From sequence record PZ386972.1: a stretch of DNA of 64,000 nucleotides; one strand, given 5' to 3'. This DNA is from a phage. Of this stretch, positions 5,979 to 63,511 are shown piece by piece (position 1 is the first letter of the stretch; each line of letters starts with the position of its first letter). The translations under genes were made by a program, and so were the position numbers. A model generated the notes under the pieces. It saw only the letters and a list, made by a program, of their open reading frames with translations. It was not told the DNA's origin and did not search any database.

Positions 5979-6022
5979 TCTCCTTTGCACGCTTTCGTGC
6001 CTTCTAAATGCAAAAAGGGGAA

Positions 6023-6055
6023 GGAGCATAGCCCCCTCCCCTTAGGTTTAATTTA
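6023..6055 (-). terminator. rho-independent terminator (minus strand)
   Basis: GC-rich hairpin AGGGGAGGGGGCTATGCTCCTTCCCCT followed by a T-run when read on the minus strand. Confidence 0.5.
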
Positions 6056-6060
6056 CCAGA

Positions 6061-7603: not shown

Positions 7604-7630
7604 ATTTCTTCCTTATCAATTTATATAAAT

Positions 7631-7659
7631 ATTATAGCAAGTATTTAAGCATTTAGCAA
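7631..7659 (-). promoter_or_regulatory. early promoter inside the gap between the two ligase ORFs
   Basis: Plus strand ATTATA 7631-7636 and TAGCAA 7654-7659 (minus-strand TTGCTA, 17 bp, TATAAT). Confidence 0.6.
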
Positions 7660-7802
7660 CTACAATTTTAACTAACTTTGCTTACCCTCGCCATAACTTT
7701 CTATCCCTCAACTGAATGATAATAGTATATACCTAAGCGGCGAAAATGTCAATAACCACTTTATAATTCCGATATGGTAGATGGGTAGCAAAGGGTTATG
7801 TA

Positions 7803-8774
7803 TTAATCGTATACTCGTTCTACTATGCACGGGATTACACCACCAGCACGAATCACTCGAATCTGGCAACCGATCTCTAGATCGAGAGAGTTAATATAAT
7901 CAACGTTATTAAGAGTCGCTTTAACAATTGTAGCATCATCAATAATTACCGGTTCGAAATAACCAACTGGAGTTACTTTACCAGAAGCCCCTACCTGCCA
8001 TTCAACTTTAGTAAGAGTTGTAACCTCGCCTTCTTCATCCTCTTTAATAGCGAATGCTCCACGAGGGAATTTATTAGTCCAGCCTTCACGGAAGAATTTG
8101 TTGTTGTCATTAATACGAACAACTTTACCATCCGTCGGAATCCATTTAAAGAAGGAACGCACATTAACAACTGTTAAGAAGTTCTCATTCTCCAGCCAAA
8201 GCATATCTTTTAAATATGCTTCTGTAATACCTACAGATTCAGCAGAACACTGGATACCATATGCAACGAAGATTAAACCACCTTCTCCGATACGTTGTAC
8301 AAAATCATCACTATCTTTGAGGTTAATAGCACCAGAGGCAAAGTTACGTTTATTTTCTACTTCTTTTGTAATTAGAACTTCACCAGTGATTTGAGTAGGT
8401 ATTTTTTGGGAAATCTTTTTAGGGATATTCAGCAATCTTACGTTGCTTGTGACATCATTTCCCAGAATACCATTGCCACGAGTTAGTGCTTGAACAAATT
8501 CTCCATTAATATATAACAGAGAAATCGCACAACCATCTAACTTATCAGTTTCTACCTGACCTAATGGGTTGAATGGGGGTTTATCTCCACGATTATAATA
8601 AACTTTCTGTAAAGAATACATACGATATAGATGTGGAATATCACCCTTAGGTCCGATCTCTTCTTCTAACGGGAAGCGTTTTACCAGGCAATCATACTCC
8701 TCATCTGAGATTAAAGACATACCTTGATAATATGCTTCTTGGCAACGTTTAATAAAGTCTTTTACATTGGTCAT
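7803..8774 (-). CDS. ligA: NAD-dependent DNA ligase, N-terminal adenylation subunit
   Basis: 323 aa; adenylation KxDG motif (ETDKLDGCAI); OB-fold region; separated from the C-terminal ORF by 199 bp. Confidence 0.8.
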   Translation of the reverse strand: MTNVKDFIKRCQEAYYQGMSLISDEEYDCLVKRFPLEEEIGPKGDIPHLYRMYSLQKVYYNRGDKPPFNPLGQVETDKLDGCAISLLYINGEFVQALTRGNGILGNDVTSNVRLLNIPKKISQKIPTQITGEVLITKEVENKRNFASGAINLKDSDDFVQRIGEGGLIFVAYGIQCSAESVGITEAYLKDMLWLENENFLTVVNVRSFFKWIPTDGKVVRINDNNKFFREGWTNKFPRGAFAIKEDEEGEVTTLTKVEWQVGASGKVTPVGYFEPVIIDDATIVKATLNNVDYINSLDLEIGCQIRVIRAGGVIPCIVERVYD

Positions 8775-9047
8775 TTATTCTGCCTCATAGTATGTGGGTT
8801 GTCTAGTGGATCCGTGCCATGTATAATTTTTGCAAAGATGCAAATATGTAGTTTTTACTAGCCTATCTGACAACGGAGAGTATATTTCAGCTACTAATAC
8901 TTCTTTTTCGTAATGAAGTGAAATCAGCTTATACCCACTTCTAGTTTTAGTATACTTTTCTCCATTAATCTTCTCCTCCCACATAAGTATAAGAGGCTGT
9001 CCGATGTACGGGAAAGGTTTAAGTGTACTTATACTTATCTTTTTCAC
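8775..9047 (-). CDS. hypothetical protein (90 aa)
   Basis: ORF track; directly abuts ligA start. Confidence 0.45.
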   Translation of the reverse strand: MKKISISTLKPFPYIGQPLILMWEEKINGEKYTKTRSGYKLISLHYEKEVLVAEIYSPLSDRLVKTTYLHLCKNYTWHGSTRQPTYYEAE

Positions 9048-9077
9048 TTTGCAACCCTCTCATTAATTTATATAAAT

Positions 9078-9106
9078 ATTATATAACAAAACTGAGTTGA
9101 AAGCAA
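9078..9106 (-). promoter_or_regulatory. early promoter (minus strand)
   Basis: Plus strand ATTATA 9078-9083 and AAGCAA 9101-9106; 17-bp spacer. Confidence 0.55.
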
Positions 9107-9133
9107 GTACATTTATAAAGAAAAAGCCAAGAA

Positions 9134-9442
9134 CTAGGCATTCTTGGCTTTGAGTTCTTCAGCTCGTTTCTGTACTTCATGTAAAACCTCAGATTCGCTA
9201 AGAATCTGTGTAAACGCATAGAAAAGCTGTGATGTTGTTTCTAGGGTGTAAGGAAAAGAGAAGCCAGATTTCGTTGGAAACCATTCATCATTAATATCAA
9301 GAAGCCAGTAACGAATACCCATGTATAGATTCCCACGAAATTCAGATACTGTTAATCTTACTTGTTCCCCCTCCTTCTCCCAAAGTATGATGGACTGGTC
9401 ATCAACGTGTCCTTCATAGTTTTGATTTACCTGTTCGCTCAT
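9134..9442 (-). CDS. hypothetical protein (102 aa)
   Basis: ORF track. Confidence 0.5.
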   Translation of the reverse strand: MSEQVNQNYEGHVDDQSIILWEKEGEQVRLTVSEFRGNLYMGIRYWLLDINDEWFPTKSGFSFPYTLETTSQLFYAFTQILSESEVLHEVQKRAEELKAKNA

Positions 9443-9454
9443 TTACATATCCCA

Positions 9455-9482
9455 AATACACAAAAAGCCCCATATAGGGGCT
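9455..9482 (-). terminator. rho-independent terminator (minus strand)
   Basis: Hairpin GCCCCTATATGGGGC followed by TTTTTG on the minus strand. Confidence 0.5.
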
Positions 9483-9492
9483 AATTGGTTTC

Positions 9493-9789
9493 TTATCGGC
9501 CTACTGGAGAAGCACGATCTAACTCTGATTGGAGGCTAGTCACACGACGGACTTTCTCGACAGGAATAAAACGGAAGCTATCATTAGTACGAGAGAAGAC
9601 AAGGATTTCATCATCTTTCGCTTTACGAATACGTTCACGTTTAATACGCTCAGCCAGATATTTATCTTGGGCTGGATCAAATTCCATCGTACCCTGAAGG
9701 TACGTGGTTCCTTTCTGACGAAGTTTCTCGTAATGAAGATAAAACTCACCAAATTTTTCACATTGTGCGATAATTTCAGCTTTGGTCAT
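9493..9789 (-). CDS. hypothetical protein (98 aa)
   Basis: ORF track. Confidence 0.5.
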   Translation of the reverse strand: MTKAEIIAQCEKFGEFYLHYEKLRQKGTTYLQGTMEFDPAQDKYLAERIKRERIRKAKDDEILVFSRTNDSFRFIPVEKVRRVTSLQSELDRASPVGR

Positions 9790-9825
9790 AACTGTGTTCC
9801 TTTTGTTGGTGGATTTATCTAAAAA

Positions 9826-10236
9826 TTACTTAGTGATAGCTCGGATTGCTTCTGCCAGATGAGCAGCCGCTTTACCGGTCAGTTTGTCGATAATCGCATC
9901 ATCCAGAAAATCTGGTGCTAGGCCAGCATCAGAGAATGCTGAACGAAGATCGGCGTGAGCTTGGGCTTTGGAGGTACGAGAACCACCGGAAGCTTTTTCT
10001 CCAGTAGATGCGCTAGATTTAGAAGCAGAGCCAGCAGCTTTCTTGATATATACACCTGCTTTGGTCAGCTTCATACGAAAACCGTTCGGAGTTACACCAT
10101 TTTCCTGAGCAATTTCGCTAACAATTTCCATGCTAACACCCGGACGTTCATCCTCTGGGAATTGCTCCATACGAGCAATGTATTCGGAAGACATTTTTTC
10201 GAACAGTTCATCAGTCCACTGAGTTGGAGTAGTCAT
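9826..10236 (-). CDS. hypothetical protein (136 aa)
   Basis: ORF track. Confidence 0.5.
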   Translation of the reverse strand: MTTPTQWTDELFEKMSSEYIARMEQFPEDERPGVSMEIVSEIAQENGVTPNGFRMKLTKAGVYIKKAAGSASKSSASTGEKASGGSRTSKAQAHADLRSAFSDAGLAPDFLDDAIIDKLTGKAAAHLAEAIRAITK

Positions 10237-10293
10237 ATTTTATATTTCCTTAATTAAGAATTAAACAGAATAGTTCTTTCAAACTATGAGAAT

Positions 10294-10322
10294 ATTATAT
10301 CAAGAATTATAGGATTAAGCAA
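10294..10322 (-). promoter_or_regulatory. early promoter (minus strand)
   Basis: Plus strand ATTATA 10294-10299 and AAGCAA 10317-10322; 17-bp spacer. Confidence 0.55.
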
Positions 10323-10342
10323 CTGAAATTTTTCGGTAACTG

Positions 10343-10630
10343 CTACACATCTAGTTCAACGATCTCCCAATCATCCGCCAATGCTTCCTCTAAGGTTAGA
10401 GATGTGGTTTTCCATGTTGCGTCTTTTATATCGAACTTGGTATATCCATCTTCATTGGGCCACCAGGTAAACTCGACAATATCATTATTATCAACATCTA
10501 CTTTTATAATAGTAGAGTAACAGGTACGAACATCCCAGTTACCCCAGCTATCCCGTTGGAGATATTTTACATCTCCATCTTTAAGCAAATCTGTTAGCTT
10601 ACTCACGGCGTTTTCCTTTCTCTTTATCAA
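10343..10630 (-). CDS. hypothetical protein (95 aa)
   Basis: ORF track. Confidence 0.45.
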   Translation of the reverse strand: MIKRKENAVSKLTDLLKDGDVKYLQRDSWGNWDVRTCYSTIIKVDVDNNDIVEFTWWPNEDGYTKFDIKDATWKTTSLTLEEALADDWEIVELDV

Positions 10631-11303
10631 GTTTCAAGGCGGCCTTAACAGCTTCGTTAATCAACGTAATAATTTCTTCACGAGTCCACTTATATCCTAG
10701 AGATTTTACGTCTACCCCTAACTTTTCCAGATGTTTAACAGAAGCCAGCTCGTAATTCATATAATGAACGTTCTGTTGTTTGCCTTCTGATAGAAGCCAT
10801 ACACGGTAGCAACCAACAGGATTATCCATTGCTTTTTTGATTTCACCGATACACTGGTATCCAGGAACCCAAACAAGCTCACCAACTGCAAATTCTTCTG
10901 CTACAGCATCATCAGGAATAATCGGAGGATTCAATGGATCTACAATATCATTCAAACGAAGTAGAGCACCATAGCGTTCCAGAACAGATTTAACCATTGC
11001 TACAGAACGATAATTACGATCGGCAATCTCTTCAAAAGAATCACCAGATAAATACTGCTCAATAACGTTGGCTAACTCGATGCCTTCAATGAGTGTGCCA
11101 CGTTTCTTTTTCTTCATTTCGGCAACTTGAATCTGGCGGTCTTGCCATTCTTCAATCATCCTTTCCATAGTTGGATTGGATGATACGCCGAGCATTTCAC
11201 ATGCTGCTTTCTTAGTACCACCGTTCTCCAGATGCTCTATAACCTTTTTAAAGACTTCATCCGGGATTTCATGGATATGTTTCTTTCTGCGAGAACCAGC
11301 CAT
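10599..11303 (-). CDS. putative DNA-binding protein (N-terminal HTH-like segment)
   Basis: 234 aa; GGTKKAACEMLGVSSNPTMERMI resembles a helix-turn-helix. Confidence 0.45.
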   Translation of the reverse strand: MAGSRRKKHIHEIPDEVFKKVIEHLENGGTKKAACEMLGVSSNPTMERMIEEWQDRQIQVAEMKKKKRGTLIEGIELANVIEQYLSGDSFEEIADRNYRSVAMVKSVLERYGALLRLNDIVDPLNPPIIPDDAVAEEFAVGELVWVPGYQCIGEIKKAMDNPVGCYRVWLLSEGKQQNVHYMNYELASVKHLEKLGVDVKSLGYKWTREEIITLINEAVKAALKLDKEKGKRRE

Positions 11304-11334
11304 ATTTAAACTCCTCTCTCAAATTTATGAATCT

Positions 11335-11363
11335 ATTATACAGAAAAATTTTCCTGAAAGCAA
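11335..11363 (-). promoter_or_regulatory. early promoter (minus strand)
   Basis: Plus strand ATTATA 11335-11340 and AAGCAA 11358-11363. Confidence 0.55.
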
Positions 11364-11371
11364 ATAAATTT

Positions 11372-11614
11372 TTACGATTCCTTGAGCAAAGAAGCAAGTT
11401 CAGCATAGACTTTATCTAACTCAAAGCCGATGCGAAGAGATACGTTAGTTTTCCGTTGTTTAAGTAACCACTCGGATATGTTAGGGATGCCAGCTAATCT
11501 ATGTGGTACCACCCTACATAGCTTTTCCGAAGTGTCGTAAACAGGAACTTTACGTTCTTTTACTGGGAACTTCCTTGTTTCCCATTTTTTATTCTTCACT
11601 GTCATTTCTAGCAC
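11372..11614 (-). CDS. hypothetical protein (80 aa)
   Basis: ORF track. Confidence 0.4.
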   Translation of the reverse strand: MLEMTVKNKKWETRKFPVKERKVPVYDTSEKLCRVVPHRLAGIPNISEWLLKQRKTNVSLRIGFELDKVYAELASLLKES

Positions 11615-14456
11615 CTAGCTCTGCCATTGCTTCATCATGCATATGTTTCTCCTCATCAGTCATAAACTTATATGGAATTGGCATACACTCGATTTTACAA
11701 TAAGTTCTGTACCAGTCTACAATATTCTCCGTGTTCATATCCTTACCAATACCCATCATACCAAGATACATTCTTGCATATTTTGGGTTAGCACTCTGAC
11801 CTGTTTTAAGGAAGAAATCTTTCTTTTTACCTTTCAAAGCTTCTATGAATGGTTTGATAGTGACATTTGAACACTTCTTAATATCCTCCCAGAACATCTC
11901 GTGCATCTTATGAAAGAATGCAGCTCTATCATTCGGTTTATCTTTGATATATTGTTCAACATGCTCAACCGTTACATCTTTAATAGACTCAAGATGATAA
12001 TAGCGAACAAGAAGTAGTTTAGCTTCATACGCATCTGCATGGCGGGGGGCACAATAATCAGGAGTTGAGTACAAAATGGCTTTGATTCGCTCTTCTGTAT
12101 ACTCTTTACCTGCACCTTCGATAGTTCCCCAGCTTTCACTGAAAATATCAATAGTTGCACCCTGATCAAGCAAGTAATAACGTAAAGTACTAGTATAGTT
12201 CCTAGACTCCAGCTCCCTGCGACGTGCGTATAATTGCTGTGCTAACTCCAGCCAACCCTCATCAATGTTATATTGTTCAGAACCTGCGGAAAATCCACTC
12301 GTAGATTTATCAATAAAATAATAAATGTTCTGAGCGCCACGGTCGCGCCTGATTGCTTGAAAACGCATGTTTGGCGCTTGGTTACTAGTTCTAGTAATAA
12401 CGAATACGTTATCAAAATAGTTGAAGTCAACACCACTCGTTACGGATGGACTACATAATAAGCAATCAATTTGTTGGTCAATTAGCTCATTAGTTGTGTA
12501 ATCCAGAATACGTCGAATATCCACATCAGACGTAGAGTTTGAGTGGATTTCCTTAACTAACGCACCCGTATTACGACGCAATGCCATGCCCTTCTCATTC
12601 AGTTCATCCGGACCACAGTCAGATACTAGGATAGATTTCTCACCCATCTCTAGGGAAGTCTGAAGTGCAACCCAAATACTGGATTCATCAGGGAACTCAT
12701 AAGCATGAGCTTTTGACAGCATTTTACGATGATGATTATAAAATGCAACCGGTTTATCAAACTCAATCAAAGAACCATATGCTTCAATTGTTTCTGCACT
12801 AATATCCCCATCAGATAATATAATGATTTTTGCAGTTGCAAGAATATCCCGAAGAACCTGAATGCACTCGCGACGTTGTTTAACAACCGGGGCGAATAAT
12901 AGGTCATTCATTACTGCATCACATTCATCAATAAAGATTGCATCAATTTGACCAATAAAACTCTTGAACTTATGCAAAGAGTGAATAGTTGTGGACATAC
13001 GGTCAATAGCACCACGCTTAAAATTAAGCATATCTACAGACTTATCATATTGTCCTGCGCTAAATTTCTTAGCGTTTGAAGATACCAGCGCTCTAGTATT
13101 TGTAACTGCTAAGAAATTACCTTTAATAACTCCTGAATCTAACCAACGCACAACCGCCGTGGTTTTACCTGTACCTAGACTTGCTTTTACAAAAGTCATA
13201 TAACCTTCTGGCGGTACAGTATTTAATTTCAAAAAGTTATCAGTTTCTAGGGAATTAGTTTCTAGCTTTTTAAGTGGAATACCTTTTAAAACATCAGGTA
13301 TATCACGTTTAGAATTATTAACAAACGCTTTCAGAGCCTGTTTACGACCGTTATTAAAGTAATCTTGAATATTACGACTATTATCTTTAGTTGCAATATA
13401 TTCTGATAAGGCTGGACGGATTTCTTTTTCTAGCCATGCAAAATCAACACCATCCTCTAAAGCTCTGTGATAGAGTTTAGGTATGATACGTAGATACACT
13501 CCATCCTCAGCTTCTTCTAGTTCGCTGATAGTTTCCTCTACTTTATCAGAGGCAGCTTTTTTACCTTTAATTTGATCGAGTAAAGAGTAAAACTCCTCCT
13601 TAAACTCACCTCTAGTTGTTTCATAGTCAACCAGATTATTAGGTAAATTTACTTTAGAACCCTTAACAAATACCAGACGTGAAGCACCCTCCGCCTTAAA
13701 CGGATCTACTATACCATCAGTAAATAACGGATCTGCAAAATAATGGAGCTGTACGGAAGAGTAATAAGCTAAGTCGGCAATATCAAAGCCATACTTTTGT
13801 CTACTACTTTCGTTGATAGATGTAAATAAGAATTTGATTTGACCCTGAGTTACTTTAACATTAGATTCTAGTATTAGGTGCATTCGGATACCTGGTTTTA
13901 GCCCAGCCGAAGACGATGCATGAGCGATAAACCCTGCATCGAGAGGAAACATGTCCTCACTAATACTATTTAACATTCTAATAATATGTCGAGCCATGCC
14001 AACAAGATCAAACTTGTTACAACCACCTGTATCTACAATACCATCCACGTCCATTGCAATTATATGACTTGGATTAGATACATTAAAGTTGCCCTTCTTA
14101 CGCCGCACATTATTTTTAGGTGCAAGACATCGACCTCGTACCGCAACGATATGAGGATCAGACGTTAAACGTCTCATAAGAGGGAGCATTTCTACTAGGG
14201 TTTGAGGATCAACTTCATCAATTACATCAAACTTGAAGGGCATTGAAGCTGGTTTACCTTCAGAATGCTTTGAGGAAAATCTTTTAGCAAAAAGATAGTC
14301 TTCTGCTTTAACTTCTCGCCAAATGCCTGTGGCTAAATCGCGATGAAATCCTGCATGACCTTGTAGGATTGAGAACACAACAATACTCCTGTGTTGGAAA
14401 TGAAATAAGTTTTCTTTAGGACTATTCAGAAAGAATAGAACAACTGTTACTGTCAA
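11589..14456 (-). CDS. large helicase-like protein with Walker A/B motifs, possible origin-binding or replication helicase
   Basis: 955 aa; Walker A SLGTGKTT; Walker B IFIDECD; embedded in the replication gene block. Confidence 0.55.
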   Translation of the reverse strand: MTVTVVLFFLNSPKENLFHFQHRSIVVFSILQGHAGFHRDLATGIWREVKAEDYLFAKRFSSKHSEGKPASMPFKFDVIDEVDPQTLVEMLPLMRRLTSDPHIVAVRGRCLAPKNNVRRKKGNFNVSNPSHIIAMDVDGIVDTGGCNKFDLVGMARHIIRMLNSISEDMFPLDAGFIAHASSSAGLKPGIRMHLILESNVKVTQGQIKFLFTSINESSRQKYGFDIADLAYYSSVQLHYFADPLFTDGIVDPFKAEGASRLVFVKGSKVNLPNNLVDYETTRGEFKEEFYSLLDQIKGKKAASDKVEETISELEEAEDGVYLRIIPKLYHRALEDGVDFAWLEKEIRPALSEYIATKDNSRNIQDYFNNGRKQALKAFVNNSKRDIPDVLKGIPLKKLETNSLETDNFLKLNTVPPEGYMTFVKASLGTGKTTAVVRWLDSGVIKGNFLAVTNTRALVSSNAKKFSAGQYDKSVDMLNFKRGAIDRMSTTIHSLHKFKSFIGQIDAIFIDECDAVMNDLLFAPVVKQRRECIQVLRDILATAKIIILSDGDISAETIEAYGSLIEFDKPVAFYNHHRKMLSKAHAYEFPDESSIWVALQTSLEMGEKSILVSDCGPDELNEKGMALRRNTGALVKEIHSNSTSDVDIRRILDYTTNELIDQQIDCLLCSPSVTSGVDFNYFDNVFVITRTSNQAPNMRFQAIRRDRGAQNIYYFIDKSTSGFSAGSEQYNIDEGWLELAQQLYARRRELESRNYTSTLRYYLLDQGATIDIFSESWGTIEGAGKEYTEERIKAILYSTPDYCAPRHADAYEAKLLLVRYYHLESIKDVTVEHVEQYIKDKPNDRAAFFHKMHEMFWEDIKKCSNVTIKPFIEALKGKKKDFFLKTGQSANPKYARMYLGMMGIGKDMNTENIVDWYRTYCKIECMPIPYKFMTDEEKHMHDEAMAELGARNDSEE

Positions 14457-14877
14457 TTTCTCAACAAATTAATTGCAAATACTGAAGTGGGGTGGCAACT
14501 TCCACTTTCACGCTGCGCTGCTGCTTTGCTATATCGCACAAATCCTTGAGGATGGCCGCTAAGCCAGATTTGCTCACCTAATGCTTCATATACTAGCTCA
14601 TACTAGATGCAATATAACTTACAGAATCACGTCTCGGAGTTTTTCACTCCTCCCGTCTCACTTCACAACCACCTCTATCTAGGTTGCTTCGAGGCCTTAC
14701 CAGGGTTCCTACGGGACGCAGATCGCTAAGTATTCTATTAACTATTTGTTTAAAAACTAACACGTAACAGTTAAAACAACCCTTAATGTGGCAGCCTAAC
14801 TGTTCCGTATCGCGGATTGTAAACAAGAAAAATTAGCAAAATCAATTTTTACTAATGTCTCTCAATTCAATATAAAT

Positions 14878-14906
14878 ATTATACCAAGATTTTGGGCATC
14901 ATGCAA
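14878..14906 (-). promoter_or_regulatory. early promoter (minus strand), about 420 nt upstream of the 955-aa gene
   Basis: Plus strand ATTATA 14878-14883 and ATGCAA 14901-14906 (minus-strand TTGCAT, 17 bp, TATAAT). Confidence 0.5.
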
Positions 14907-14945
14907 GTAAAATTTTCCGGATGGTGCTATCATTGGTCTTAAGTA

Positions 14946-14975
14946 CGGATAAAACCGAGCCAAAATGACTCGGTA
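14946..14975 (-). terminator. rho-independent terminator (minus strand)
   Basis: Minus-strand hairpin CCGAGTCATTTTGGCTCGG followed by TTTTAT. Confidence 0.5.
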
Positions 14976-14997
14976 ATCAGAGTTCAGCTAATAAAAA

Positions 14998-15390
14998 TCA
15001 TTCATCATTTAATCCTGGAACATAGATCCCAACACGATTTAATTGTTCTTTAGCTTCTGCGAGAATATCTGGAGTGTACTCCCAAATATCGTCTTCCACC
15101 TGTAAAAGATGGGAAGAACAACCATCATGCGGCACACGACATATGGCCAAACCACGTGGATGGAACAAAGAGAAATTTAGGGCAACAATTAAACCCATAG
15201 CAGACAACTCATTCCAATCCAACTCCCATTCCCCCGCGTAGCCGGATAGGAAAACACCAACACAGGGATCATCTATTTGCTGCTCCGGAAAAGTGAAGGA
15301 GGCTTGTCTTACCCCCAACCAACGTTGTAGCAGCTTCTCCGCACGTTTCACCAAACTAGGATCAATCTGACGCCAATATACTTGTTCCAT
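14998..15390 (-). CDS. hypothetical protein, tandem paralog A (130 aa)
   Basis: Shares WxELxxMGLxxALNxxLFxP and C-terminal PGL motifs with the adjacent 15400..15828 ORF. Confidence 0.5.
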   Translation of the reverse strand: MEQVYWRQIDPSLVKRAEKLLQRWLGVRQASFTFPEQQIDDPCVGVFLSGYAGEWELDWNELSAMGLIVALNFSLFHPRGLAICRVPHDGCSSHLLQVEDDIWEYTPDILAEAKEQLNRVGIYVPGLNDE

Positions 15391-15399
15391 TCTGCCTCC

Positions 15400-15828
15400 T
15401 TAAGCAGTTAAACCTGGGATCATATACCCGAAACGTCGAAGTTTCTGAATCCCATCATTTACTTCTTCCGGTGAGTAAGACCAACCGTAACGTTCATTAA
15501 CCTGAAAACCAGGAGATTCACTAGTTTTATAGTTAACAACAAGGCGATGCTTAGCAGGCATAAACAGCTTATAGTTTAACGCAAAAACTAAGCCCATTTC
15601 ATCTAACTCTTTCCAGCCGACAATTTCTTCAAGACCCTCCTCTACCTGAACAATTAAACCAATACAGGGAGCCTCATCAATATCATCTTTAAAAGCAAAG
15701 GAGATTTCGTTATTCTCACACCATATTTTCAAAGAGTTAATAGCCTCATTATATAGGCTAGCTGGGAGAGTACGCCAAAAGTTAACCAAAATTGGGTTAG
15801 CTTCTTTAGAGAATACATTATTGAACAT
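15400..15828 (-). CDS. hypothetical protein, tandem paralog B (142 aa)
   Basis: Paralogous to 14998..15390. Confidence 0.5.
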   Translation of the reverse strand: MFNNVFSKEANPILVNFWRTLPASLYNEAINSLKIWCENNEISFAFKDDIDEAPCIGLIVQVEEGLEEIVGWKELDEMGLVFALNYKLFMPAKHRLVVNYKTSESPGFQVNERYGWSYSPEEVNDGIQKLRRFGYMIPGLTA

Positions 15829-15830
15829 AT

Positions 15831-16337
15831 TTACACCTTAAATTGCTGTAAGGATTTACACATTTCAAGATCCGGACTAAATTCTAGCATATAGCTAACA
15901 GCTTTTAAATCTTGAAGATTTATCCCAGTCCTACCGTTGACTATAACCGTTGGATACTGATACATCATAGCACCCGCATCATCAAGCACACACCAATGTT
16001 TGAGCTTATGCTTTTCAACGAAGCGAAGAACAGAATTACCCCTAGATAATCCACCTCCAGTAAAATCCGTTGTACCAAGAAAGCGATCGATAAGACCTAA
16101 TCCGGTCATAATCTGAACGTTCTCCATCTCATTTCTAACAGAGAACCAAGATGATACCCCAACAATCATTATTGGGGAAGGACGAATAAAGTCCTGAAAA
16201 GCCTTGAGAAGTGGTTTGAAAACCCAGTCACTTCCAAAGAAAATCTTTTCATCATCAGGTGCATGATGGTGGGAGATGCTCGAATTGAGCACCCCATCAA
16301 TATCTAGAAAAATAATTGGAGTATTACTTATTTCCAT
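15831..16337 (-). CDS. HAD-superfamily phosphatase-like protein
   Basis: 168 aa; HAD motif I IIFLDIDGVLNS; C-terminal DD motif. Confidence 0.5.
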   Translation of the reverse strand: MEISNTPIIFLDIDGVLNSSISHHHAPDDEKIFFGSDWVFKPLLKAFQDFIRPSPIMIVGVSSWFSVRNEMENVQIMTGLGLIDRFLGTTDFTGGGLSRGNSVLRFVEKHKLKHWCVLDDAGAMMYQYPTVIVNGRTGINLQDLKAVSYMLEFSPDLEMCKSLQQFKV

Positions 16338-52093: not shown

Positions 52094-52510
52094 ATGTTTG
52101 CAGAACTATTCACTATGATGCTGCTAGGTATCTGGAAAATAAGTCTAGTAGTATTCGTTTTAATGATAGTCTTTACTATCATTGCATTAACTACCCGAAA
52201 TAGCTTATTAATAAAGGTTATTCACGGACTAGAGTATATAATTATGGGTTCATTCGGCGTTTGTAAATGCAATTGCCATAGAGATACGAAATATTGTTGG
52301 TTATGGATGGAACTAGAGAATCCTATATCCATAGCTTTGGCTGTTTCATTCGGTATGATTCTTATGGCCCTTACTCTAGCATTAATACCTTTGATGTTAG
52401 CTGGGGGAGTTACAGCGTATTTCACCCTTTTCTCCCCGATACTTATGTACTCAATTTACCCAATAACTATGTATCTAGTTAGGAAAAAATTTATACATAC
52501 AGTAGATTAA
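52094..52510 (+). CDS. hypothetical multi-pass membrane protein (138 aa)
   Basis: ORF track; several hydrophobic segments. Confidence 0.4.
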   Translation: MFAELFTMMLLGIWKISLVVFVLMIVFTIIALTTRNSLLIKVIHGLEYIIMGSFGVCKCNCHRDTKYCWLWMELENPISIALAVSFGMILMALTLALIPLMLAGGVTAYFTLFSPILMYSIYPITMYLVRKKFIHTVD

Positions 52511-52523
52511 GATAAAAAAGTAG

Positions 52524-52552
52524 TTGACTTTTAGCCCTAGTTATTATATAAT
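52524..52552 (+). promoter_or_regulatory. promoter (TTGACT, 17 bp, TATAAT)
   Basis: -35 at 52524-52529, -10 at 52547-52552. Confidence 0.55.
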
Positions 52553-52585
52553 ATATACATAAATTAGTTAAGAGAGGTATATATT

Positions 52586-53017
52586 ATGTCTGATCGTTTC
52601 TATACTCAAATGGCGGAACATTTTCGTATACCACATTACGAGCTAAACATTGCACTCCGTGATCATGACTCTCCTGAGTACAAAAAGCTCGAAAAGAAAG
52701 CGGAAAAATCTATTGATACAAAGGTAGGTGCATCTATGTCTAAGGGCAAAAAGTTAACTCGTCTTGATCTTAATAAAATTTTAACTGAACTTTTGGGTAC
52801 TGATATTGAAGGTGCTAAATTACCGCTTCTTGTATTAGAGACTATGATTAAAAAGGTCAAAAATAAAGAATATAAGAAGGTAGAAGTGCCAGAAGGCAGA
52901 TTAAAGGCTCCTTATCAGGAAGCATTAACCGAGTGTTTGGGTGTAAATCTTGATCTGAGCACCGCAACCGTAAAAACTATGAAAAACTTCTTAGAGGCCA
53001 TTAATAACTATGAGTAA
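52586..53017 (+). CDS. hypothetical protein (143 aa)
   Basis: ORF track; GAGAGG RBS. Confidence 0.45.
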   Translation: MSDRFYTQMAEHFRIPHYELNIALRDHDSPEYKKLEKKAEKSIDTKVGASMSKGKKLTRLDLNKILTELLGTDIEGAKLPLLVLETMIKKVKNKEYKKVEVPEGRLKAPYQEALTECLGVNLDLSTATVKTMKNFLEAINNYE

Positions 53018-53300
53018 ACTAGTATATCTATTGAAAGGTTCCACTTGCAATCCTTGCAAAATGTTTGAGCCAGTATTTGATAAAGTAGTCAATGACTATA
53101 ATTTGGAAATCCATAAAGAGACTGATAACACAGAATTAATGCAGAAATTTGGTGTGCGCCAAGTTCCTGTAGTAGTTCTGGCGGATCGCTTACCTAATGG
53201 TCGAGTAGAAGCTAATCATATTCTGATTGGACGTCAGCTTCGTAAAGAAACTATGCACGAAGCTATTAAAAATTTCCTGGATGATAATCCAGAGGACTAA
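53010..53300 (+). CDS. thioredoxin/glutaredoxin-like protein
   Basis: 96 aa; CxxC active-site-like STCNPCKMF; cis-Pro-like VRQVPVVV. Confidence 0.5.
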   Translation: MSKLVYLLKGSTCNPCKMFEPVFDKVVNDYNLEIHKETDNTELMQKFGVRQVPVVVLADRLPNGRVEANHILIGRQLRKETMHEAIKNFLDDNPED

Positions 53301-60341: not shown

Positions 60342-61073
60342 ATGAGTATTAGTGAGAATTTAAAGACTATTATTAAGCTGGCTAAGAATGCAGACGGCAA
60401 ATGTGTTTCTGAACTAACTCCTGATGAAGCTCATGCAGTAGCATTCTGTTCTGAGTTTCATCCCGCAGCTTATACAGAAGCTGGAATTGTTAAATATAAT
60501 AAAGAAGAAAAATTCGTAACTCTATCTCCTTCTTATATTGCAATGAGAAAGATCATCAATTCTGTTGGTGATAAGATTGTAGGGTTCAAGGCAGATTCAT
60601 ATCATGTCTTTGCAGATCAGGAACTTCCAGTATTTAAAGAAGGAAATGTTAGAGTTGCACTAGAATTATATCCCGAGGAAAAGTTCATTCCACCTAAACG
60701 TTGTGAATATGATCATCTTCCTAGACTCCAAAGAAAAGATACTGGATTCCCTTATACAAAAGATGAAGTGTTGCTAGGGATTGCTTCTACGATTGCGCAG
60801 GTTCATCTATGTCTCGAAAAGAACCTAGAGATGCCATTAATCTTACAGTCTGCACATAAAGCAATGTTAAATGACTGGGATCAATTCTTTAAGATTATAG
60901 GAGCTGTCGGATTAGCACGTTTACTTCCTGCATTTGAGAACTCTGAAGTATTTGGCGAAGGTTCTTTCGGAACTGTAGATTATGATGCGCTAAAATCCCC
61001 ACACTCCTATCTTGCAACTTTTCTCTTCATGGTCTCGAAGGGTATCGTTCTCAAATACAAGCGGAAGGAATAA
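60342..61073 (+). CDS. hypothetical protein (243 aa)
   Basis: ORF track; last plus-strand gene before the repeat region. Confidence 0.5.
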   Translation: MSISENLKTIIKLAKNADGKCVSELTPDEAHAVAFCSEFHPAAYTEAGIVKYNKEEKFVTLSPSYIAMRKIINSVGDKIVGFKADSYHVFADQELPVFKEGNVRVALELYPEEKFIPPKRCEYDHLPRLQRKDTGFPYTKDEVLLGIASTIAQVHLCLEKNLEMPLILQSAHKAMLNDWDQFFKIIGAVGLARLLPAFENSEVFGEGSFGTVDYDALKSPHSYLATFLFMVSKGIVLKYKRKE

Positions 61074-61090
61074 ACGTTAACAAAATCTTC

Positions 61091-61120
61091 TTGACAACTC
61101 ATTAAGGTACATGTTATAAT
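61091..61120 (+). promoter_or_regulatory. consensus sigma70-type promoter (TTGACA, 18 bp, TATAAT) pointing into the repeat region
   Basis: -35 at 61091-61096, -10 at 61115-61120; no plus-strand ORF downstream. Confidence 0.5.
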
Positions 61121-61156
61121 AATCTCATAGATTAAAAACAACTTCTGTTTTTAGCT

Positions 61157-61438
61157 CTAGGCAACAAGATTATTGCTATCCCAACTCGAAGAGTACACCA
61201 GAGCCCCTGGCGCTAGGATGTATTCTGCAGCAGTTTTCACGGGATTAGCATACAGATCTTGAACGCCTAGAGCAGCAGACTTACGAGATTGGGGGATCTT
61301 ATATTTAAAATAAAAGTAAAACTTTTGACCACATAATTTACATTCAAGATGATACACCTGTTGCCGCTCATCTGCTAGGATGGCACAACACTTTCCTAGA
61401 AACTCCAGAGTTCTCACGAAATAATCACGAGATACCAC
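61157..61438 (-). CDS. hypothetical protein (93 aa)
   Basis: ORF track only; no promoter or RBS support found. Confidence 0.3.
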   Translation of the reverse strand: MVSRDYFVRTLEFLGKCCAILADERQQVYHLECKLCGQKFYFYFKYKIPQSRKSAALGVQDLYANPVKTAAEYILAPGALVYSSSWDSNNLVA

Positions 61439-61446
61439 TCTTTCTA

Positions 61447-61518
61447 GGGCGGTTCTCCTAAGTTTCTAGGAACATATACTAGGCGGTTTAATACAGGGCG
61501 GTTATTGGGAGGGCGGTT
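61447..61518. repeat. four direct copies of GGGCGGTT
   Basis: Copies at 61447, 61482 (GGCGGTT), 61496 and 61511. Confidence 0.7.
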
Positions 61519-61636
61519 ATTTCTAGGAGACATTTTTTGAAAACACATTTCCAGAAATTACTGTCGGATTTGCACATTGTGTTTCTAGAAATTTATGGTC
61601 GGATTTGCACAATCGCCTAAGTTTTTAGGAACATAT
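61456..61636. repeat. 22-bp direct repeat CCTAAGTTT(C/T)TAGGAACATATA, two copies
   Basis: Copies at 61456-61477 and 61615-61636, one mismatch. Confidence 0.7.
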
Positions 61637-62161
61637 AATCTCTTGAAAATGGCAGCATTATTTCGGGCCGAAGGCCCATGATTGCCTGAGTTTTTAGAGC
61701 CACAAGAATTTTCACTTGTCAAGCTATTTTGCCCCATTTTGCTAATAAAATTTTACTTTATCTGCACTTATCTCAAATTAACCCAAATCTTCTCAACTCT
61801 TCTCCAAAATCCCCGCAAATCAGGTGCTCCGCACCAAACATGCGCCCCTCCCGCAGTTCCCCCAAATTTCTCTCGCTCTCTCAACTTCTCCCCAAACTCA
61901 CACAATCACACACCCTCTAATCGAAGTCACAAAAATCTTGTCGGATTCGCACATCTTAATCCTAGAAAAACCATGTCGGATTTGCACATACCCCACAGGA
62001 TTCGAACGCAGTTCGTGATTGCTGGAGTTTTTAGGAAAATTCATTGTCGGATTTGCACACTATAAAAATTTTTCGGGTCGGATTTGCACACTACCAAAAA
62101 TTGTCGGATTTGCACATACACGCCCCCGCGTAATCCATGGGGGCAAATGTCGGTTTTGCAC
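61563..62161. repeat. eight direct copies of the 15-mer TGTCGGATTTGCACA, irregularly spaced
   Basis: Copies at 61563, 61597, 61939, 61974, 62044, 62075, 62101 and 62147; variants GGTCGG, GATTCG, GGTTTTG. Confidence 0.8.
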
Positions 62162-62167
62162 AAAAGC

Positions 62168-62185
62168 GCAGGGCAATTGCCCTGC
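62168..62185. repeat. perfect 18-bp palindrome GCAGGGCAATTGCCCTGC
   Basis: Self-complementary sequence read directly. Confidence 0.8.
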
Positions 62186-62191
62186 CCACCT

Positions 62192-62345
62192 GAATGCAAA
62201 TAAAAATGAGAATCGTTTGCATTTAAAAAGTGAAATGAGAATGATAATGATTCGCATTTAGAAAGTGAAATGATTCTCATTTAGAAAGTGGAATGATTCT
62301 CATTTAGATAGTGAAATACAAATGATAATGATTCGCATTTAAGAA
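62192..62345. repeat. array of AATGAGAAT / ATTCTCATT and AATGATAATGATT (Fur-box-like) palindromic repeats
   Basis: AATGATAATGATTCGCATTT twice (62242, 62320); GAAATGATTCTCATTTAGA twice; inverted partner AATGAGAATCG at 62205. Confidence 0.7.
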
Positions 62346-62372
62346 CGGAAGTGAGAAACACTATTATTTAAG

Positions 62373-62381
62373 TTATCCACA
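62373..62381. promoter_or_regulatory. perfect DnaA box TTATCCACA
   Basis: Exact 9-mer match. Confidence 0.6.
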
Positions 62382-62445
62382 GACTTATTAACAGCACGAT
62401 TTGACTTGACAGAATCCTAGCCATTTTGAGGCGTTATTAACAGAC

Positions 62446-62454
62446 TTATCCACA
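62446..62454. promoter_or_regulatory. perfect DnaA box TTATCCACA (second copy, 73 bp from the first)
   Basis: Exact 9-mer match within repeated CAGACTTAT context. Confidence 0.6.
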
Positions 62455-62462
62455 GCTTATCC

Positions 62463-62482
62463 TACTGTATAAATATACAGTA
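62463..62482. promoter_or_regulatory. LexA (SOS) box-like palindrome TACTGTATAAATATACAGTA
   Basis: Matches CTGT-N8-ACAG with AT-rich core. Confidence 0.55.
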
Positions 62483-62847
62483 TTCCTACGCAGTGAATAA
62501 TTCTAATATAGCGTTAAAACGTCCTAGATCGCATTCTAACGCGTTTAATTTTGGTGGGGATACTAAAACAAGGGCAAAATTGGAGGAGGCTTGAAAATTA
62601 GTTAGCTCGCTAACGATCACACAAGGCGACACGTAACATCCTAATCATTAGCAGGCTAACCATCGCGGGCGCGGTCAAATAAGAATGATTCTCATTTGAG
62701 AATTGGGGCACTTCCTGATAGTTGCGCCCCGTGATTATTACAGTAGTGGGCAACCGTTACGCTTTGCCCATTCCCGCCACTCATCTTGATGTCTAGACTT
62801 GCGACGGCGTACTAAAAACCGTTTATACCAGTGATTAAACCATCGTT

Positions 62848-63081
62848 TCATAAATCCTCCTCCGGTAGTCGATGCGTGATTTTTTCCTCCTCCCCATAGG
62901 AATCCGCCAAATGCTGATAATAACCCTCGTGATCATAAATCACTTTATCATACTCGCCACGCTCGACCGCTTGCCGATTCTCTGGCGTATCGGGCACGTA
63001 AAAAACGTCTACCATCGTAGTAGTTTTGGTCACAATAATTTTATTGCTCATAGTAACTCCTAGTAAATATATTTTTGCCAA
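62848..63081 (-). CDS. hypothetical protein (77 aa)
   Basis: ORF track; GGAGG RBS on the minus strand upstream of ATG. Confidence 0.4.
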   Translation of the reverse strand: MAKIYLLGVTMSNKIIVTKTTTMVDVFYVPDTPENRQAVERGEYDKVIYDHEGYYQHLADSYGEEEKITHRLPEEDL

Positions 63082-63151
63082 TAGTGGCGAACGTTATCGC
63101 CACCAGCGGAATCATTAGCTGCCTCAACATTACCAACGAAAATATATAATT

Positions 63152-63511
63152 TCATTGCGCCACCTTTCGAAACGCTGTTTCAATACTATCAGCCGTGGAT
63201 TGAATATACGCGCCTTTCATTATCAGGCGCTCGGTGCATACCTTGCGGAAAATATTAATAAAATCCTCTTCATTTTCTGCAATCAATGCTTCCCCCATGA
63301 CCTGAATATCACAAGATGCAAAGGTCAAAAATTGAAATGCTAGTTCACGGGCAACGACCGCATTGATTTTATAATGCGCCTTGCCCTCATAAATATTAAT
63401 AACGCCCTTGTAAGCTGGGGAAAGCTGATTTAAGTAATTTGCTAGTAATGCCGGACGGCAATTAGCAACAAAGCGATTGCCTTCATAAATTATCATTTGC
63501 ATAGCTCCCAA
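63152..63511 (-). CDS. hypothetical protein (119 aa)
   Basis: ORF track; GGAGCTATGCAA start context. Confidence 0.45.
   Translation of the reverse strand: MGAMQMIIYEGNRFVANCRPALLANYLNQLSPAYKGVINIYEGKAHYKINAVVARELAFQFLTFASCDIQVMGEALIAENEEDFINIFRKVCTERLIMKGAYIQSTADSIETAFRKVAQ

What the first reader, a model, noticed from the sequence alone, without database searches (positions are those of the whole stretch)
62190..62700. Fur-box-like and AATGA-N3-TCATT palindromes repeated in the non-coding region
AATGATAATGATT (12 of 13 matches to the Fur-box core AATGATAATCATT) occurs twice. The near-palindrome AATGATTCTCATT occurs twice in 62192-62345, with an inverted partner at 62205, and again at 62684-62696. 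Repetition of a dimer-type operator suggests binding by an iron-responsive or phage-encoded repressor. This is notable because T5-type phages use an iron-regulated outer-membrane receptor.
Basis: inference. Interest (0 to 1): 0.5.

Follow-up and report, generated by a model that had tools for sequence, protein, structure and literature searches.

The report
Fur-box array at T5 injection-stop region
The repeated palindromes are the long-known but unexplained repeat block at the point where T5-type phages pause DNA injection, and they score as an array of binding sites for the host iron sensor Fur, which gives a testable candidate for a 60-year-old puzzle.

Summary
The window is a T5-like phage. 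The motifs are the counterparts of T5's annotated repeats DRC1-4 and palE-I in Repeat Region 3 of the terminal repeat. This non-coding stretch holds the injection-stop signal, so the repeats themselves are already known; their function is not.

The Fur reading is new in the literature I could search, and it survives testing.
- A Fur matrix built from 18 E. coli promoter regions puts the three best sites of the 64 kb in this array (17.8, 17.1 and 16.2 bits; true sites score 16.8 ± 3.6).
- Nine sites of at least 10 bits lie in 510 nt, many spaced by exactly 6 nt.
- Permuted matrices never reproduce this.
- The Fur-like score is kept across three Demerecviridae lineages against simulated drift.
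- The exact 20-mer of the long unit occurs in more than 120 proteobacterial genomes, mostly just upstream of TonB-dependent receptors and iron-transport genes.

Not supported: a classical operator (the flanking genes converge and no good promoter is present), and the link to an iron-regulated receptor (BtuB-using relatives carry the array).

Best reading: a loading platform for host Fur beside two DnaA-box pairs at the boundary of first-step DNA transfer. Fur binding is likely. Its role in the pause is inferred.

The parts
62196..62226 (.). Unit 1, inverted relative to the others (counterpart of T5 DRC4/palI). Fur-matrix sites start at 62196 (7.8 bits), 62202 (14.1) and 62208 (9.1), spaced by 6 nt.
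62231..62261 (.). Unit 2, long 35-nt type (T5 DRC3/palG), GAGAATGATAATGATTCGCATTTAG. Sites start at 62231 (9.6 bits), 62237 (17.8, the best of the window) and 62243 (16.2).
62266..62284 (.). Unit 3, short 23-nt type (T5 DRC2), TGAAATGATTCTCATTTAG, 12.7 bits.
62289..62307 (.). Unit 4, short 23-nt type, TGGAATGATTCTCATTTAG, 11.6 bits.
62318..62342 (.). Unit 5, long type (T5 DRC1/palE). Sites start at 62318 (14.1 bits) and 62324 (17.1). It contains the 20-mer AATGATAATGATTCGCATTT (62321-62340), which is shared with other phages and with more than 120 bacterial genomes.
62675..62699 (.). Isolated pair of Fur-like sites (12.6 and 15.2 bits, 6 nt apart) on the far side of the DnaA boxes. It lies in a segment of about 115 nt that T5 itself lacks and that other relatives have.
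62373..62393 (+). DnaA-box pair TTATCCACA-GAC-TTATTAACA (T5 IRC'/DRB2).
62434..62454 (+). DnaA-box pair TTATTAACA-GAC-TTATCCACA (T5 IRD'/DRB1). The palindrome palD follows at 62463-62482.
62166..62185 (-). palJ hairpin GCAGGGCAATTGCCCTGC, terminator-like on the minus strand. It overlaps the counterpart (62166-62173, GCGCAGGG) of the site annotated in T5 as the major single-strand nick at 7.9%.
61562..62162 (+). Eight copies of GTCGGATT(T/C)GCACA (T5 direct repeat D), at 61562, 61598, 61939, 61974, 62045, 62077, 62102 and 62148. They span the terminal-repeat boundary.
61660..61697 (.). Inner boundary of the terminal repeat, as mapped from three annotated relatives. The repeat runs to the right of it.

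Best explanation
The motifs are the DRC/palE-I block of 'Repeat Region 3' in the terminal repeat of a T5-type phage. The block has five units of 23 or 35 nt plus one outlying pair. Each unit is built from (N)AATGA hexamers in direct and inverted order.

I read it as an array of binding sites for the host ferric uptake regulator Fur in its iron-bound form. About 150 bp could hold several overlapping Fur dimers.

It lies between two DnaA-box pairs and the counterpart of T5's 7.9% nick, which is the estimated boundary between first-step and second-step DNA transfer. It does not lie in front of a gene. It therefore most likely acts as a place where host proteins load, Fur here and DnaA next door, onto the first DNA to enter the cell. 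The resulting nucleoprotein complex would be part of the injection-stop or hold signal and could make that step sensitive to the host's iron state.

Shown: the identity of the region, the Fur-like sequence, its conservation, and its use by bacteria in front of iron genes.
Inferred: that Fur binds here in infected cells (my estimate about 0.85 for binding in vitro), and that binding matters for the transfer pause (about 0.3).
For: Identity of the region
- The window is 88% identical to T5 9099-10449, and every T5 feature maps in order.
- The terminal-repeat boundary is at about 61660-61697.
- Davison places the estimated shear point of the first-step DNA (T5 9618) inside this repeat block.

Fur-likeness
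- The matrix came from 18 footprinted or gel-shifted E. coli regions and carries 16.2 bits. True sites score 16.8 ± 3.6 when left out of the matrix, with a minimum of 10.9.
- Window sites score 17.8, 17.1 and 16.2 bits, the top three of 64 kb. Nine sites reach 10 bits in 510 nt, against 0.25 per kb elsewhere.
- Sites are spaced by exactly 6 nt, as Chen et al. describe for Fur clusters.
- None of 2000 permuted matrices gives 9 hits.

Conservation
- 27 distinct arrays keep 6-12 sites of at least 10 bits at 9-24% mismatch to the window. Simulated neutral substitution predicts a fall from 4.3 to 1.4 sites.
- Density of sites of at least 14 bits is 15.7 per kb inside arrays and 0.25 per kb in 316 kb of other T5-like DNA.
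- The array is present in Klebsiella phage Sugarland, Yersinia phage phiR2-01 and Pectobacterium phage My1.

Host rather than phage factor
- The same 20-mer occurs in Phapecoctavirus myoviruses and in about 45 unrelated viral contigs.
- It also occurs in more than 120 proteobacterial genomes. Of the 88 genes that start within 350 nt downstream of it, 19 are TonB-dependent receptors and 8 are periplasmic solute-binding proteins. IucA/IucC, ferritin and cupredoxin-domain proteins also appear. Among control genes in the same loci, 2 of 74 are receptors.
- The Qin prophage site that Chen et al. gel-shifted with Fur has the same variant core, GATAATGATT.
Against: - No experiment here shows Fur on this DNA.
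- There is no convincing promoter for Fur to control: only 9-of-12 matches, and the flanking genes converge.
- The repeat frame includes conserved bases (AAGTG between units) that a single Fur dimer site does not explain.
- The 23-nt unit spacing is not a multiple of 6.
- Proteus phage RP7 keeps the DnaA boxes but has only two weak sites, so a strong array is not kept in every lineage.
- A protein bound to DNA already inside the cell does not obviously stop further entry, so the link to the pause is mechanistically weak.
- The arrays compared are related by descent, so counts across phages are not independent.
Confidence: 0.45

Rival explanations
1. The units are iteron-like binding sites for a phage-encoded protein, for example the pre-early DNA-binding protein A2 or a virion protein. 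That protein would hold or release the DNA at the injection-stop site. The resemblance to Fur boxes would be incidental or mimicry.
For: - Unit spacings of 23 and 35 nt resemble iteron arrays.
- The conserved frame extends beyond the 19-nt Fur site.
- A1 and A2 are required for second-step transfer.
- The function of the repeats is untested.
Against: - The same 20-mer and similar clusters occur in phages with unrelated gene content.
- They also occur in more than 120 bacterial chromosomes in front of iron-uptake genes. A T5-specific protein cannot explain this.
- From my own knowledge, not checked here: the pause happens without phage protein synthesis.
Confidence: 0.17
2. The array acts through DNA structure rather than through a sequence-specific protein. 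It would be an A+T-rich, palindrome-dense stretch beside the DnaA boxes that is unwound by DnaA or extrudes hairpins or cruciforms. This would stall passage through the tail, or serve as an origin-like unwinding element.
For: - The single strand folds better than shuffles (-26.8 against -15.5 kcal/mol, z = -3.9).
- There are long inverted repeats: the counterpart of palH is 56 nt, and pair I2 has 26-nt arms.
- DnaA-box pairs lie directly adjacent.
- In one group of viral contigs the same palindromes sit between two clusters of 3-4 DnaA boxes, which looks origin-like.
Against: - Structure alone needs base pairing or A+T richness, not the invariant AATGA..TCATT letters that are kept across subfamilies.
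- It does not explain the use of the 20-mer as a single copy in front of bacterial iron genes.
- Davison cites mapping of T5 replication origins near the middle of the genome.
Confidence: 0.13
3. The array is a recognition element for DNA maturation. It would serve terminase binding for the cut at the right end of the terminal repeat, or the nicking enzyme that makes the 7.9% (and 99.5%) nick.
For: - It lies 10-30 nt from the nick-site counterpart and about 500-650 nt from the repeat boundary.
- In the right-hand repeat copy it would sit near the physical end of the genome.
- Fur-like pairs also sit 31-56 nt from the right cohesive end of lambda.
- They sit upstream of terminase genes in five viral contigs.
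Against: - Elsewhere in the 64 kb, which should include other T5 nick sites, only isolated Fur-like sites occur and no array.
- Unrelated terminases would not share one 20-mer.
- In My1 the GCGC/hairpin element lies on the other side of the array.
Confidence: 0.08
4. The array is a true Fur operator over a weak internal promoter. That promoter would drive a short minus-strand transcript ending at the palJ hairpin. Candidates are TTCACT-17-TATCAT at 62269-62241 and TTAATA-17-AATAAT at 62391-62363. The product would be an iron-regulated small RNA or leader.
For: - Promoter-like matches and a terminator-like hairpin with a T run lie on the same strand, 50-190 nt apart.
- In other viral contigs the element lies 12-25 nt upstream of start codons, like an operator.
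Against: - The promoter matches are only 9 of 12, at a frequency close to the shuffled expectation (10 found against 6.1 ± 2.4).
- The candidate -10 elements are not conserved in Sugarland.
- Rfam has no family match (best E = 0.7).
Confidence: 0.08
5. Chance resemblance: an A+T-rich repeat that happens to look like the degenerate Fur consensus.
For: - The Fur consensus is A+T-rich and hexamer-repetitive.
- The units are copies of one another, so the number of independent events in the window is about two.
Against: - 0 of 2000 permuted matrices reach the observed count, and 0.2% place 3 or more sites above the best background score.
- The score is retained against simulated drift.
- The identical 20-mer lies in front of bacterial iron genes.
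Confidence: 0.03

Closest known systems
Bacteriophage T5 left-terminal-repeat 'Repeat Region 3' (injection-stop region): direct repeats C1-4 and palindromes E-I of GenBank AY587007
   Same: The window is 88% identical and collinear, feature by feature. The order is palD, the IRD'/IRC' DnaA-box pairs, the DRC/pal block, palJ with the 7.9% nick site, the D repeats, and the repeat boundary. In both phages the region is non-coding and lies between converging pre-early and early genes.
   Different: The window has one 23-nt unit fewer than T5. It has an extra segment of about 115 nt that carries the outlying site at 62675-62699. The published descriptions I could read name the repeats and the DnaA boxes but never Fur.
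Fur-binding-site clusters of E. coli iron promoters (fhuF, fepA-fes, entC, fecI, iucA; Chen et al. 2007, PMC2189734)
   Same: Matrix scores are in the same range as true sites. Sites overlap at 6-nt spacing and the cluster is 100-150 bp long. Variant cores such as GATAATGATT (sufA, nohA) and TTCTCATT (gpmA, fepB) are shared.
   Different: The cluster does not overlap a recognisable promoter. It lies in a virulent phage, in a convergent non-coding region. The clusters recur with a 23/35-nt unit period, and bases between the units are conserved.
Fur-like pair near the cos site of lambda, and the gel-shifted 'nohA' Fur site of the Qin prophage
   Same: Both are phage DNA carrying two 6-nt-spaced Fur-matrix sites of 17-21 bits close to a genome end or packaging site. 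The Qin site binds Fur in vitro and was recovered by Fur titration.
   Different: It is a single pair, not an array. There are no DnaA boxes beside it. It lies in a cos phage, 31-56 nt from the end. Its role in lambda is unknown to me.
Iteron plus DnaA-box modules of plasmid and phage replication origins
   Same: Both have direct repeats of about 22-23 nt beside DnaA boxes. The DnaA pair TTATCCACAGACTTATCAACAG occurs letter for letter beside iteron-like repeats in unrelated viral contigs.
   Different: There is no initiator gene next to the array. According to Davison, T5 origins were mapped near the middle of the genome. The units are inverted-repeat Fur-type sites rather than asymmetric iterons.

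Membership tests
T5-type Repeat Region 3 (injection-stop region) | Lies at the inner end of the long terminal repeat, non-coding, between converging pre-early and early genes | tested here: met
   The repeat boundary maps to 61660-61697. ORFs left of the region are on the plus strand and ORFs right of it on the minus strand.
T5-type Repeat Region 3 (injection-stop region) | Collinear set of named repeats: IRD'/IRC' with paired DnaA boxes 3 bp apart, the DRC/pal block, palJ with the nick site, and D repeats | tested here: met
   Alignment with T5 at 88% identity. All features map except DRD9.
T5-type Repeat Region 3 (injection-stop region) | Acts in cis to stop DNA transfer at about 8% of the genome | not testable with these tools
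   This needs infection experiments. It is also untested for the repeats in T5 and BF23.
Fur box / Fur-binding-site cluster | Match to the 19-bp Fur model at the level of experimentally bound sites | tested here: met
   17.8, 17.1 and 16.2 bits, against 16.8 ± 3.6 for 18 true sites left out of the matrix.
Fur box / Fur-binding-site cluster | Overlapping sites spaced by 6 (or 3) bp within a cluster | tested here: met
   Site starts at 62196/62202/62208, 62231/62237/62243, 62318/62324 and 62675/62681. The criterion comes from Chen et al. 2007.
Fur box / Fur-binding-site cluster | Overlaps the promoter of an iron-regulated gene | tested here: not met
   Only 9-of-12 promoter look-alikes, near the chance rate, and the flanking genes converge. 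In bacteria the same 20-mer does lie 0-350 nt upstream of iron-uptake genes.
Fur box / Fur-binding-site cluster | Bound by Fur with its metal cofactor in vitro or in vivo, with an iron-dependent effect | not testable with these tools
   Indirect support only: the Qin prophage site with the same variant core was gel-shifted.
Iteron/DnaA-box replication origin | Phased direct repeats next to DnaA boxes | tested here: met
   Units of 23 and 35 nt lie 30-110 nt from two DnaA-box pairs.
Iteron/DnaA-box replication origin | Adjacent initiator (Rep) gene and demonstrated origin activity | tested here: not met
   No such gene flanks the region. Davison reports that T5 origins were mapped near the genome centre. 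Origin activity itself is not testable here.
Known structured RNA (Rfam) | Match to a curated covariance model | tested here: not met
   The best match is rli61 at 21.8 bits against a gathering score of 50, E = 0.7.

The most novel reading that the evidence does not exclude
Host Fur, together with DnaA, is a trans-acting component of the T5 injection-stop signal. Two-step DNA transfer would then be gated by the iron state of the cell. More broadly, unrelated phages of proteobacteria (T5-like, lambda-like, Phapecoctavirus and a podovirus-like group) would place bona fide Fur operators in terminal, packaging-proximal or origin-like non-coding DNA to couple an early step of infection to host iron status.
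Probability: 0.15. Interest if true: 0.85.

Novelty: new variant of a known kind. Interest (0 to 1): 0.62.

Why it matters
How T5 stops after injecting 8% of its DNA has been open since the 1960s. The stop signal is known only as a conserved thicket of repeats. Recent papers still call the role of the repeats untested.

If part of that thicket is an array of operators for an abundant, non-essential host protein, the question becomes directly testable. The tests are a fur deletion host, iron chelation, gel shifts, and array deletions made with existing T5 editing methods.

The same operator turns up in lambda next to cos, in Phapecoctavirus, and in other viral contigs beside DnaA boxes. This suggests that phage use of the host iron regulator may be wider than the known cases of prophage-borne toxin genes.

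Tried and rejected
- Rfam scan of 60800-63200 found nothing above chance.
- A small-RNA or internal-promoter reading: the promoter matches are weak and not conserved.
- CRP-like reading of the short units (AGTGA-N6-TCTCA), checked by eye. It fails in T5, where the half-site reads GCGG, and in the long units.
- Zur-box reading, checked by eye. The AAATG..CATTT arms are 5 or 17 nt apart, not the 11 nt I recall for Zur boxes.
- I saw no match to my remembered IHF or Fis consensus. This was not tested with a matrix.
- The search for related loci with the neighbouring 243-aa protein returned only near-identical phages.
- A search of E. coli genomes with the long unit gave 24 weak hits in an island that carries an integrase gene and a transposase fragment. 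This was uninformative.
- The Vibrio phage pVp-1 record starts in the replication genes, so the stretch fetched (bases 1-16000) did not reach its terminal-repeat region.
- Davison's 2015 review (PMC4743489) and Heusterspreute et al. 1987 are not held. I cannot exclude that one of them mentions Fur. Davison's 2020 preprint does not.
- Three literature searches found no paper linking Fur with T5-like phages.

Full report
**1. The observation**

- AATGATAATGATT occurs exactly at 62240 and 62321.
- AATGATTCTCATT occurs exactly at 62269, 62292 and 62684. A one-mismatch inverted copy lies at 62205.
- Eight of the 14 matches to AATGA-N3-TCATT (up to 1 mismatch) in the 64 kb lie in 62205-62696. Shuffles give 5.4 ± 2.4 matches in the whole window.
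- The motifs are cores of longer units: a 23-nt unit (3.1 copies, 91% matches) and a 35-nt unit. The spacing between successive units is 35, 23, 23 and 35 nt, and a sixth member lies at 62676-62702.

**2. What the region is**

The 1.4 kb around the finding matches 457 phage records. All of the listed best hits are T5-like Demerecviridae, and the closest is 94.7% identical.

In two relatives with annotated terminal repeats, the repeat boundary falls inside this non-coding stretch. This corresponds to window position about 61660-61675.

The T5 record AY587007 annotates the homologous stretch in detail. The window aligns to T5 9099-10449 at 88% identity. Mapping the T5 features onto the window gives:

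| T5 feature | Window coordinates |
|---|---|
| DRC1/palE | 62315-62344 |
| DRC2 | 62262-62286 |
| DRC3/palG | 62234-62260 |
| DRC4/palI | 62198-62228 |
| palJ | 62168-62185 |
| site annotated as 'major single-stranded nick 1, 7.9%' | 62166-62173 |
| D repeats (eight copies) | 61562-62162 |
| IRC' and IRD' with their DnaA-box pairs | 62350-62480 |
| end of the left terminal repeat | 61697 |

The finding is therefore the window's copy of T5 'Repeat Region 3', the untranslated region that holds the injection-stop signal.
- Davison's comparison of 25 phages describes these repeats and the eight DnaA boxes, and places the estimated shear point of the first-step DNA (T5 9618) inside this block. Fur and iron are not mentioned.
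- A 2023 paper on BF23 and a 2026 preprint still describe the region as repeats whose role is experimentally untested.
- The genes on both sides are transcribed towards the region.

**3. Is it Fur-like?**

I built a 19-nt symmetric matrix from 18 E. coli K-12 promoter regions. Most are listed as footprinted or gel-shifted with Fur by Chen et al. 2007; sufA and fiu carry only predicted clusters. The matrix carries 16.2 bits and reproduces the textbook consensus GATAATGATAATCATTATC. True sites score 16.8 ± 3.6 bits when left out of the matrix, with a minimum of 10.9.

Scan of the window:
- The three best sites of the 64 kb are all in the array: 17.8 bits at 62237, 17.1 at 62324 and 16.2 at 62243.
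- Nine sites reach 10 bits within 62190-62700. That is 17.6 per kb, against 0.25 per kb elsewhere.
- Neighbouring sites are offset by exactly 6 nt: 62196/62202/62208, 62231/62237/62243, 62318/62324 and 62675/62681. Chen et al. give this as the signature of Fur clusters.
- Sequences simulated from the region's own dinucleotide content give 0.35 such sites on average, and never more than four.

Control: I permuted the matrix columns symmetrically 2000 times, which keeps composition and palindromy. No permuted matrix reached nine hits at the same stringency. Only 0.2% placed three or more sites above the best background score.

**4. Conservation**

A scan of IMG/VR with the adjacent DnaA-box pair returned 40 loci.
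- The 26 T5-like loci with enough upstream sequence carry 6-10 sites of at least 11 bits in the 260 nt upstream. The Sugarland locus was cut 103 nt upstream.
- Of the 13 unrelated loci that share the DnaA pair, 12 carry none and one has a single 12.5-bit site.

Across 27 distinct arrays the number of units varies from about 4 to 9, and the sequences differ by 9-24% from the window. All 27 keep 6-12 sites of at least 10 bits, with maxima of 17-25 bits. Random substitution of the window's array at 10-25% would leave 4.3 to 1.4 sites on average.

In 316 kb of other T5-like DNA the density of sites of at least 14 bits is 0.25 per kb. In the arrays it is 15.7 per kb.

The array is present in three lineages:

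| Phage | Sites of at least 10 bits |
|---|---|
| Klebsiella phage Sugarland | 6 |
| Yersinia phage phiR2-01 | 11 |
| Pectobacterium phage My1 (a different subfamily, flanks hardly alignable) | 9, maximum 21.0 bits |

Proteus phage RP7 keeps the DnaA boxes but has only two weak sites.

Caveat: these arrays share ancestry, and alignments of repeats are ambiguous. This shows constraint on the motif. It does not identify the protein.

**5. Host or phage factor?**

The long unit's 20-mer AATGATAATGATTCGCATTT is not confined to T5-like phages.
- It occurs in the Phapecoctavirus UP17, in a 1.26-kb non-coding region with six sites of at least 11 bits (maximum 22.8). The DNA search also hit related myoviruses of Serratia, Klebsiella, Cronobacter and Pectobacterium.
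- It occurs in 58 IMG/VR stretches, of which 45 are not alignable to the window.

The strongest test was the scan of bacterial genomes. Nearly all are beta- or gamma-proteobacteria. I looked at the 88 genes that start within 350 nt downstream of it:
- 19 are TonB-dependent receptors.
- 8 are periplasmic solute-binding proteins; I take them to be of the ferric-iron type, from my own knowledge of these families.
- The rest include an IucA/IucC siderophore synthetase, a ferritin and two cupredoxin-domain proteins.
- Among control genes more than 1.5 kb away in the same loci, 2 of 74 are TonB-dependent receptors.

The phage unit is thus, letter for letter, a sequence that bacteria place in front of iron-acquisition genes. 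This is what a Fur operator is expected to look like.

In addition, the 'nohA' site of the Qin prophage carries the same variant core, GATAATGATT. Chen et al. gel-shifted it with Fur, and it had been recovered in vivo by Fur titration.

**6.

The receptor argument does not hold.
- DT571/2 uses BtuB and has 12 sites of at least 10 bits.
- phiR2-01 is BtuB-dependent according to the title of PMC8624392 and has 11 sites.

Nor is there a promoter to repress.
- The only consensus promoter nearby (61091-61120) lies 1.1 kb away, outside the terminal repeat.
- Matches near the array are 9 of 12, at about the chance rate.

**7. Mechanism**

Shown:
- This is the repeat block at the boundary of first-step DNA transfer.
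- It has the sequence properties of a multi-dimer Fur cluster.
- That property is under constraint.
- It sits beside two DnaA-box pairs.

Inferred:
- Host Fur occupies it as soon as this DNA enters the cell.
- Together with DnaA it forms a nucleoprotein complex that is part of the stop or hold signal, or otherwise marks this boundary.

I put Fur binding in vitro at about 0.85 and a role in the transfer pause at about 0.3. How a cytoplasmic protein would stop further entry is not obvious. That weakness is shared with the published DnaA model.

Rivals:
- binding sites for a phage protein;
- a structural or unwinding element (the strand folds at z = -3.9);
- a maturation or nickase signal;
- an operator for a short transcript ending at palJ;
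- chance.

Chance is close to excluded.

**8. Novelty**

The repeats themselves are known; by my recollection they were first described in 1987, and they are annotated in the T5 GenBank record AY587007. Three full-text searches and the one Davison paper I could read found no mention of Fur in connection with T5-like phages. Two older key papers are not held.

I file it as a new variant of a known kind: a Fur-box cluster in a non-promoter context, at a phage injection-stop region.

Noticed in passing
window 61091-61120 (+): A perfect sigma-70 consensus promoter (TTGACA, 18 nt, TG-TATAAT; 12 of 12) lies just after the stop codon of the 243-aa ORF. It is outside the terminal repeat and points into the non-coding region, towards the D repeats and the array. 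The T5 record lists no promoter there, and the two sequences align poorly at this point.
   Followed up: partly
window 61446-61518: Four copies of (A/T)(G/A)GGCGGTT, at 61446, 61480, 61495 and 61510, lie on the unique side of the repeat boundary. They are conserved in T5 and recognisable in Pectobacterium phage My1 (aaccgccct). Two copies of CCTAAGTTTCTAGGAACATATA lie nearby (61454, 61613).
   Followed up: no
L022, L025, L029, L033, L047, L049, L050, L053 and others (IMG/VR): The 22-mer DnaA-box pair TTATCCACAGACTTATCAACAG of the T5 region occurs letter for letter in 13 viral contigs that do not align to the window. Several lie right after a gene end and beside GGAAC or GGTAAC iteron-like repeats, which looks like a replication origin. 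Twelve have no Fur-like site within 260 nt upstream, and one (L041) has a single 12.5-bit site.
   Followed up: partly
L017 2509-2620 (Escherichia phage UP17, LR746137 about 132.7 kb): A Phapecoctavirus myovirus carries six Fur-matrix sites of at least 11 bits (maximum 22.8, GTAAATGATAATCATTCTC) in a 1.26-kb non-coding region, including the 20-mer AATGATAATGATTCGCATTT of the T5-like long unit. The DNA search also hit related phages of Serratia, Klebsiella, Cronobacter and Pectobacterium.
   Followed up: partly
L062, L064, L065, L067, L069, L070, L076, L082, L085, L089, L091, L097, L098, L100, L103-L105 (IMG/VR): A group of podovirus-like contigs shares one module: three DnaA boxes, AAATGAGAATGATTCTTATTT, TGTAAATGATAATGATTCGCATTTACA, then three or four more DnaA boxes. 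In L091 it fills the gap between a diverging replication module (primase/helicase, methyltransferase, DNA polymerase I) and the large terminase and portal genes.
   Followed up: partly
L114 (lambda NC_001416 48447-48471); L110 389-413 (Qin); L111 390-414 (DLP12): Lambda has two 6-nt-spaced Fur-matrix sites (19.1 and 17.3 bits, GTAGATGATAATCATTATCACTTTA) 31-56 nt from its right cohesive end. They abut GGGTCCT, which I recall as cosQ. The homologous Qin site is the gel-shifted 'nohA' Fur site of Chen et al. 2007.
   Followed up: partly
L096, L068, L074, L078 (IMG/VR): In four further contig groups the Fur-like cluster lies in the intergenic region about 1.0-2.2 kb upstream of a large-terminase gene of the same PHROG family (phrog_2). 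Together with lambda and T5, this suggests an association of such clusters with packaging-proximal or terminal DNA.
   Followed up: partly
L115-L194 (bacterial genome contigs): The exact 20-mer AATGATAATGATTCGCATTT is found in more than 120 beta- and gamma-proteobacterial genomes. In 29 of 66 loci a gene starts within 50 nt downstream of it. Besides the iron-related families, five downstream genes encode DUF2325 proteins.
   Followed up: yes
L042 4872-4896 (phage T5, roughly 18.7 kb in the genome); also L034, L037, L052, L059: A second conserved pair of 6-nt-spaced Fur-like sites of at least 16 bits (GGAACTGATAATCATTATC and GATAATCATTATCATCCTC) lies in the early region of T5 and several relatives. 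The window has only a degenerate counterpart near 52160-53100.
   Followed up: no
window 62598-62732: Relative to T5, the window has an extra segment of about 115 nt at the position of T5 palindrome C (annotated as a terminator). It contains the hairpin GGGGCGC...GTGCCCC, the outlying Fur-like pair, and a weaker site at 62634-62652 (9.8 bits).
   Followed up: partly
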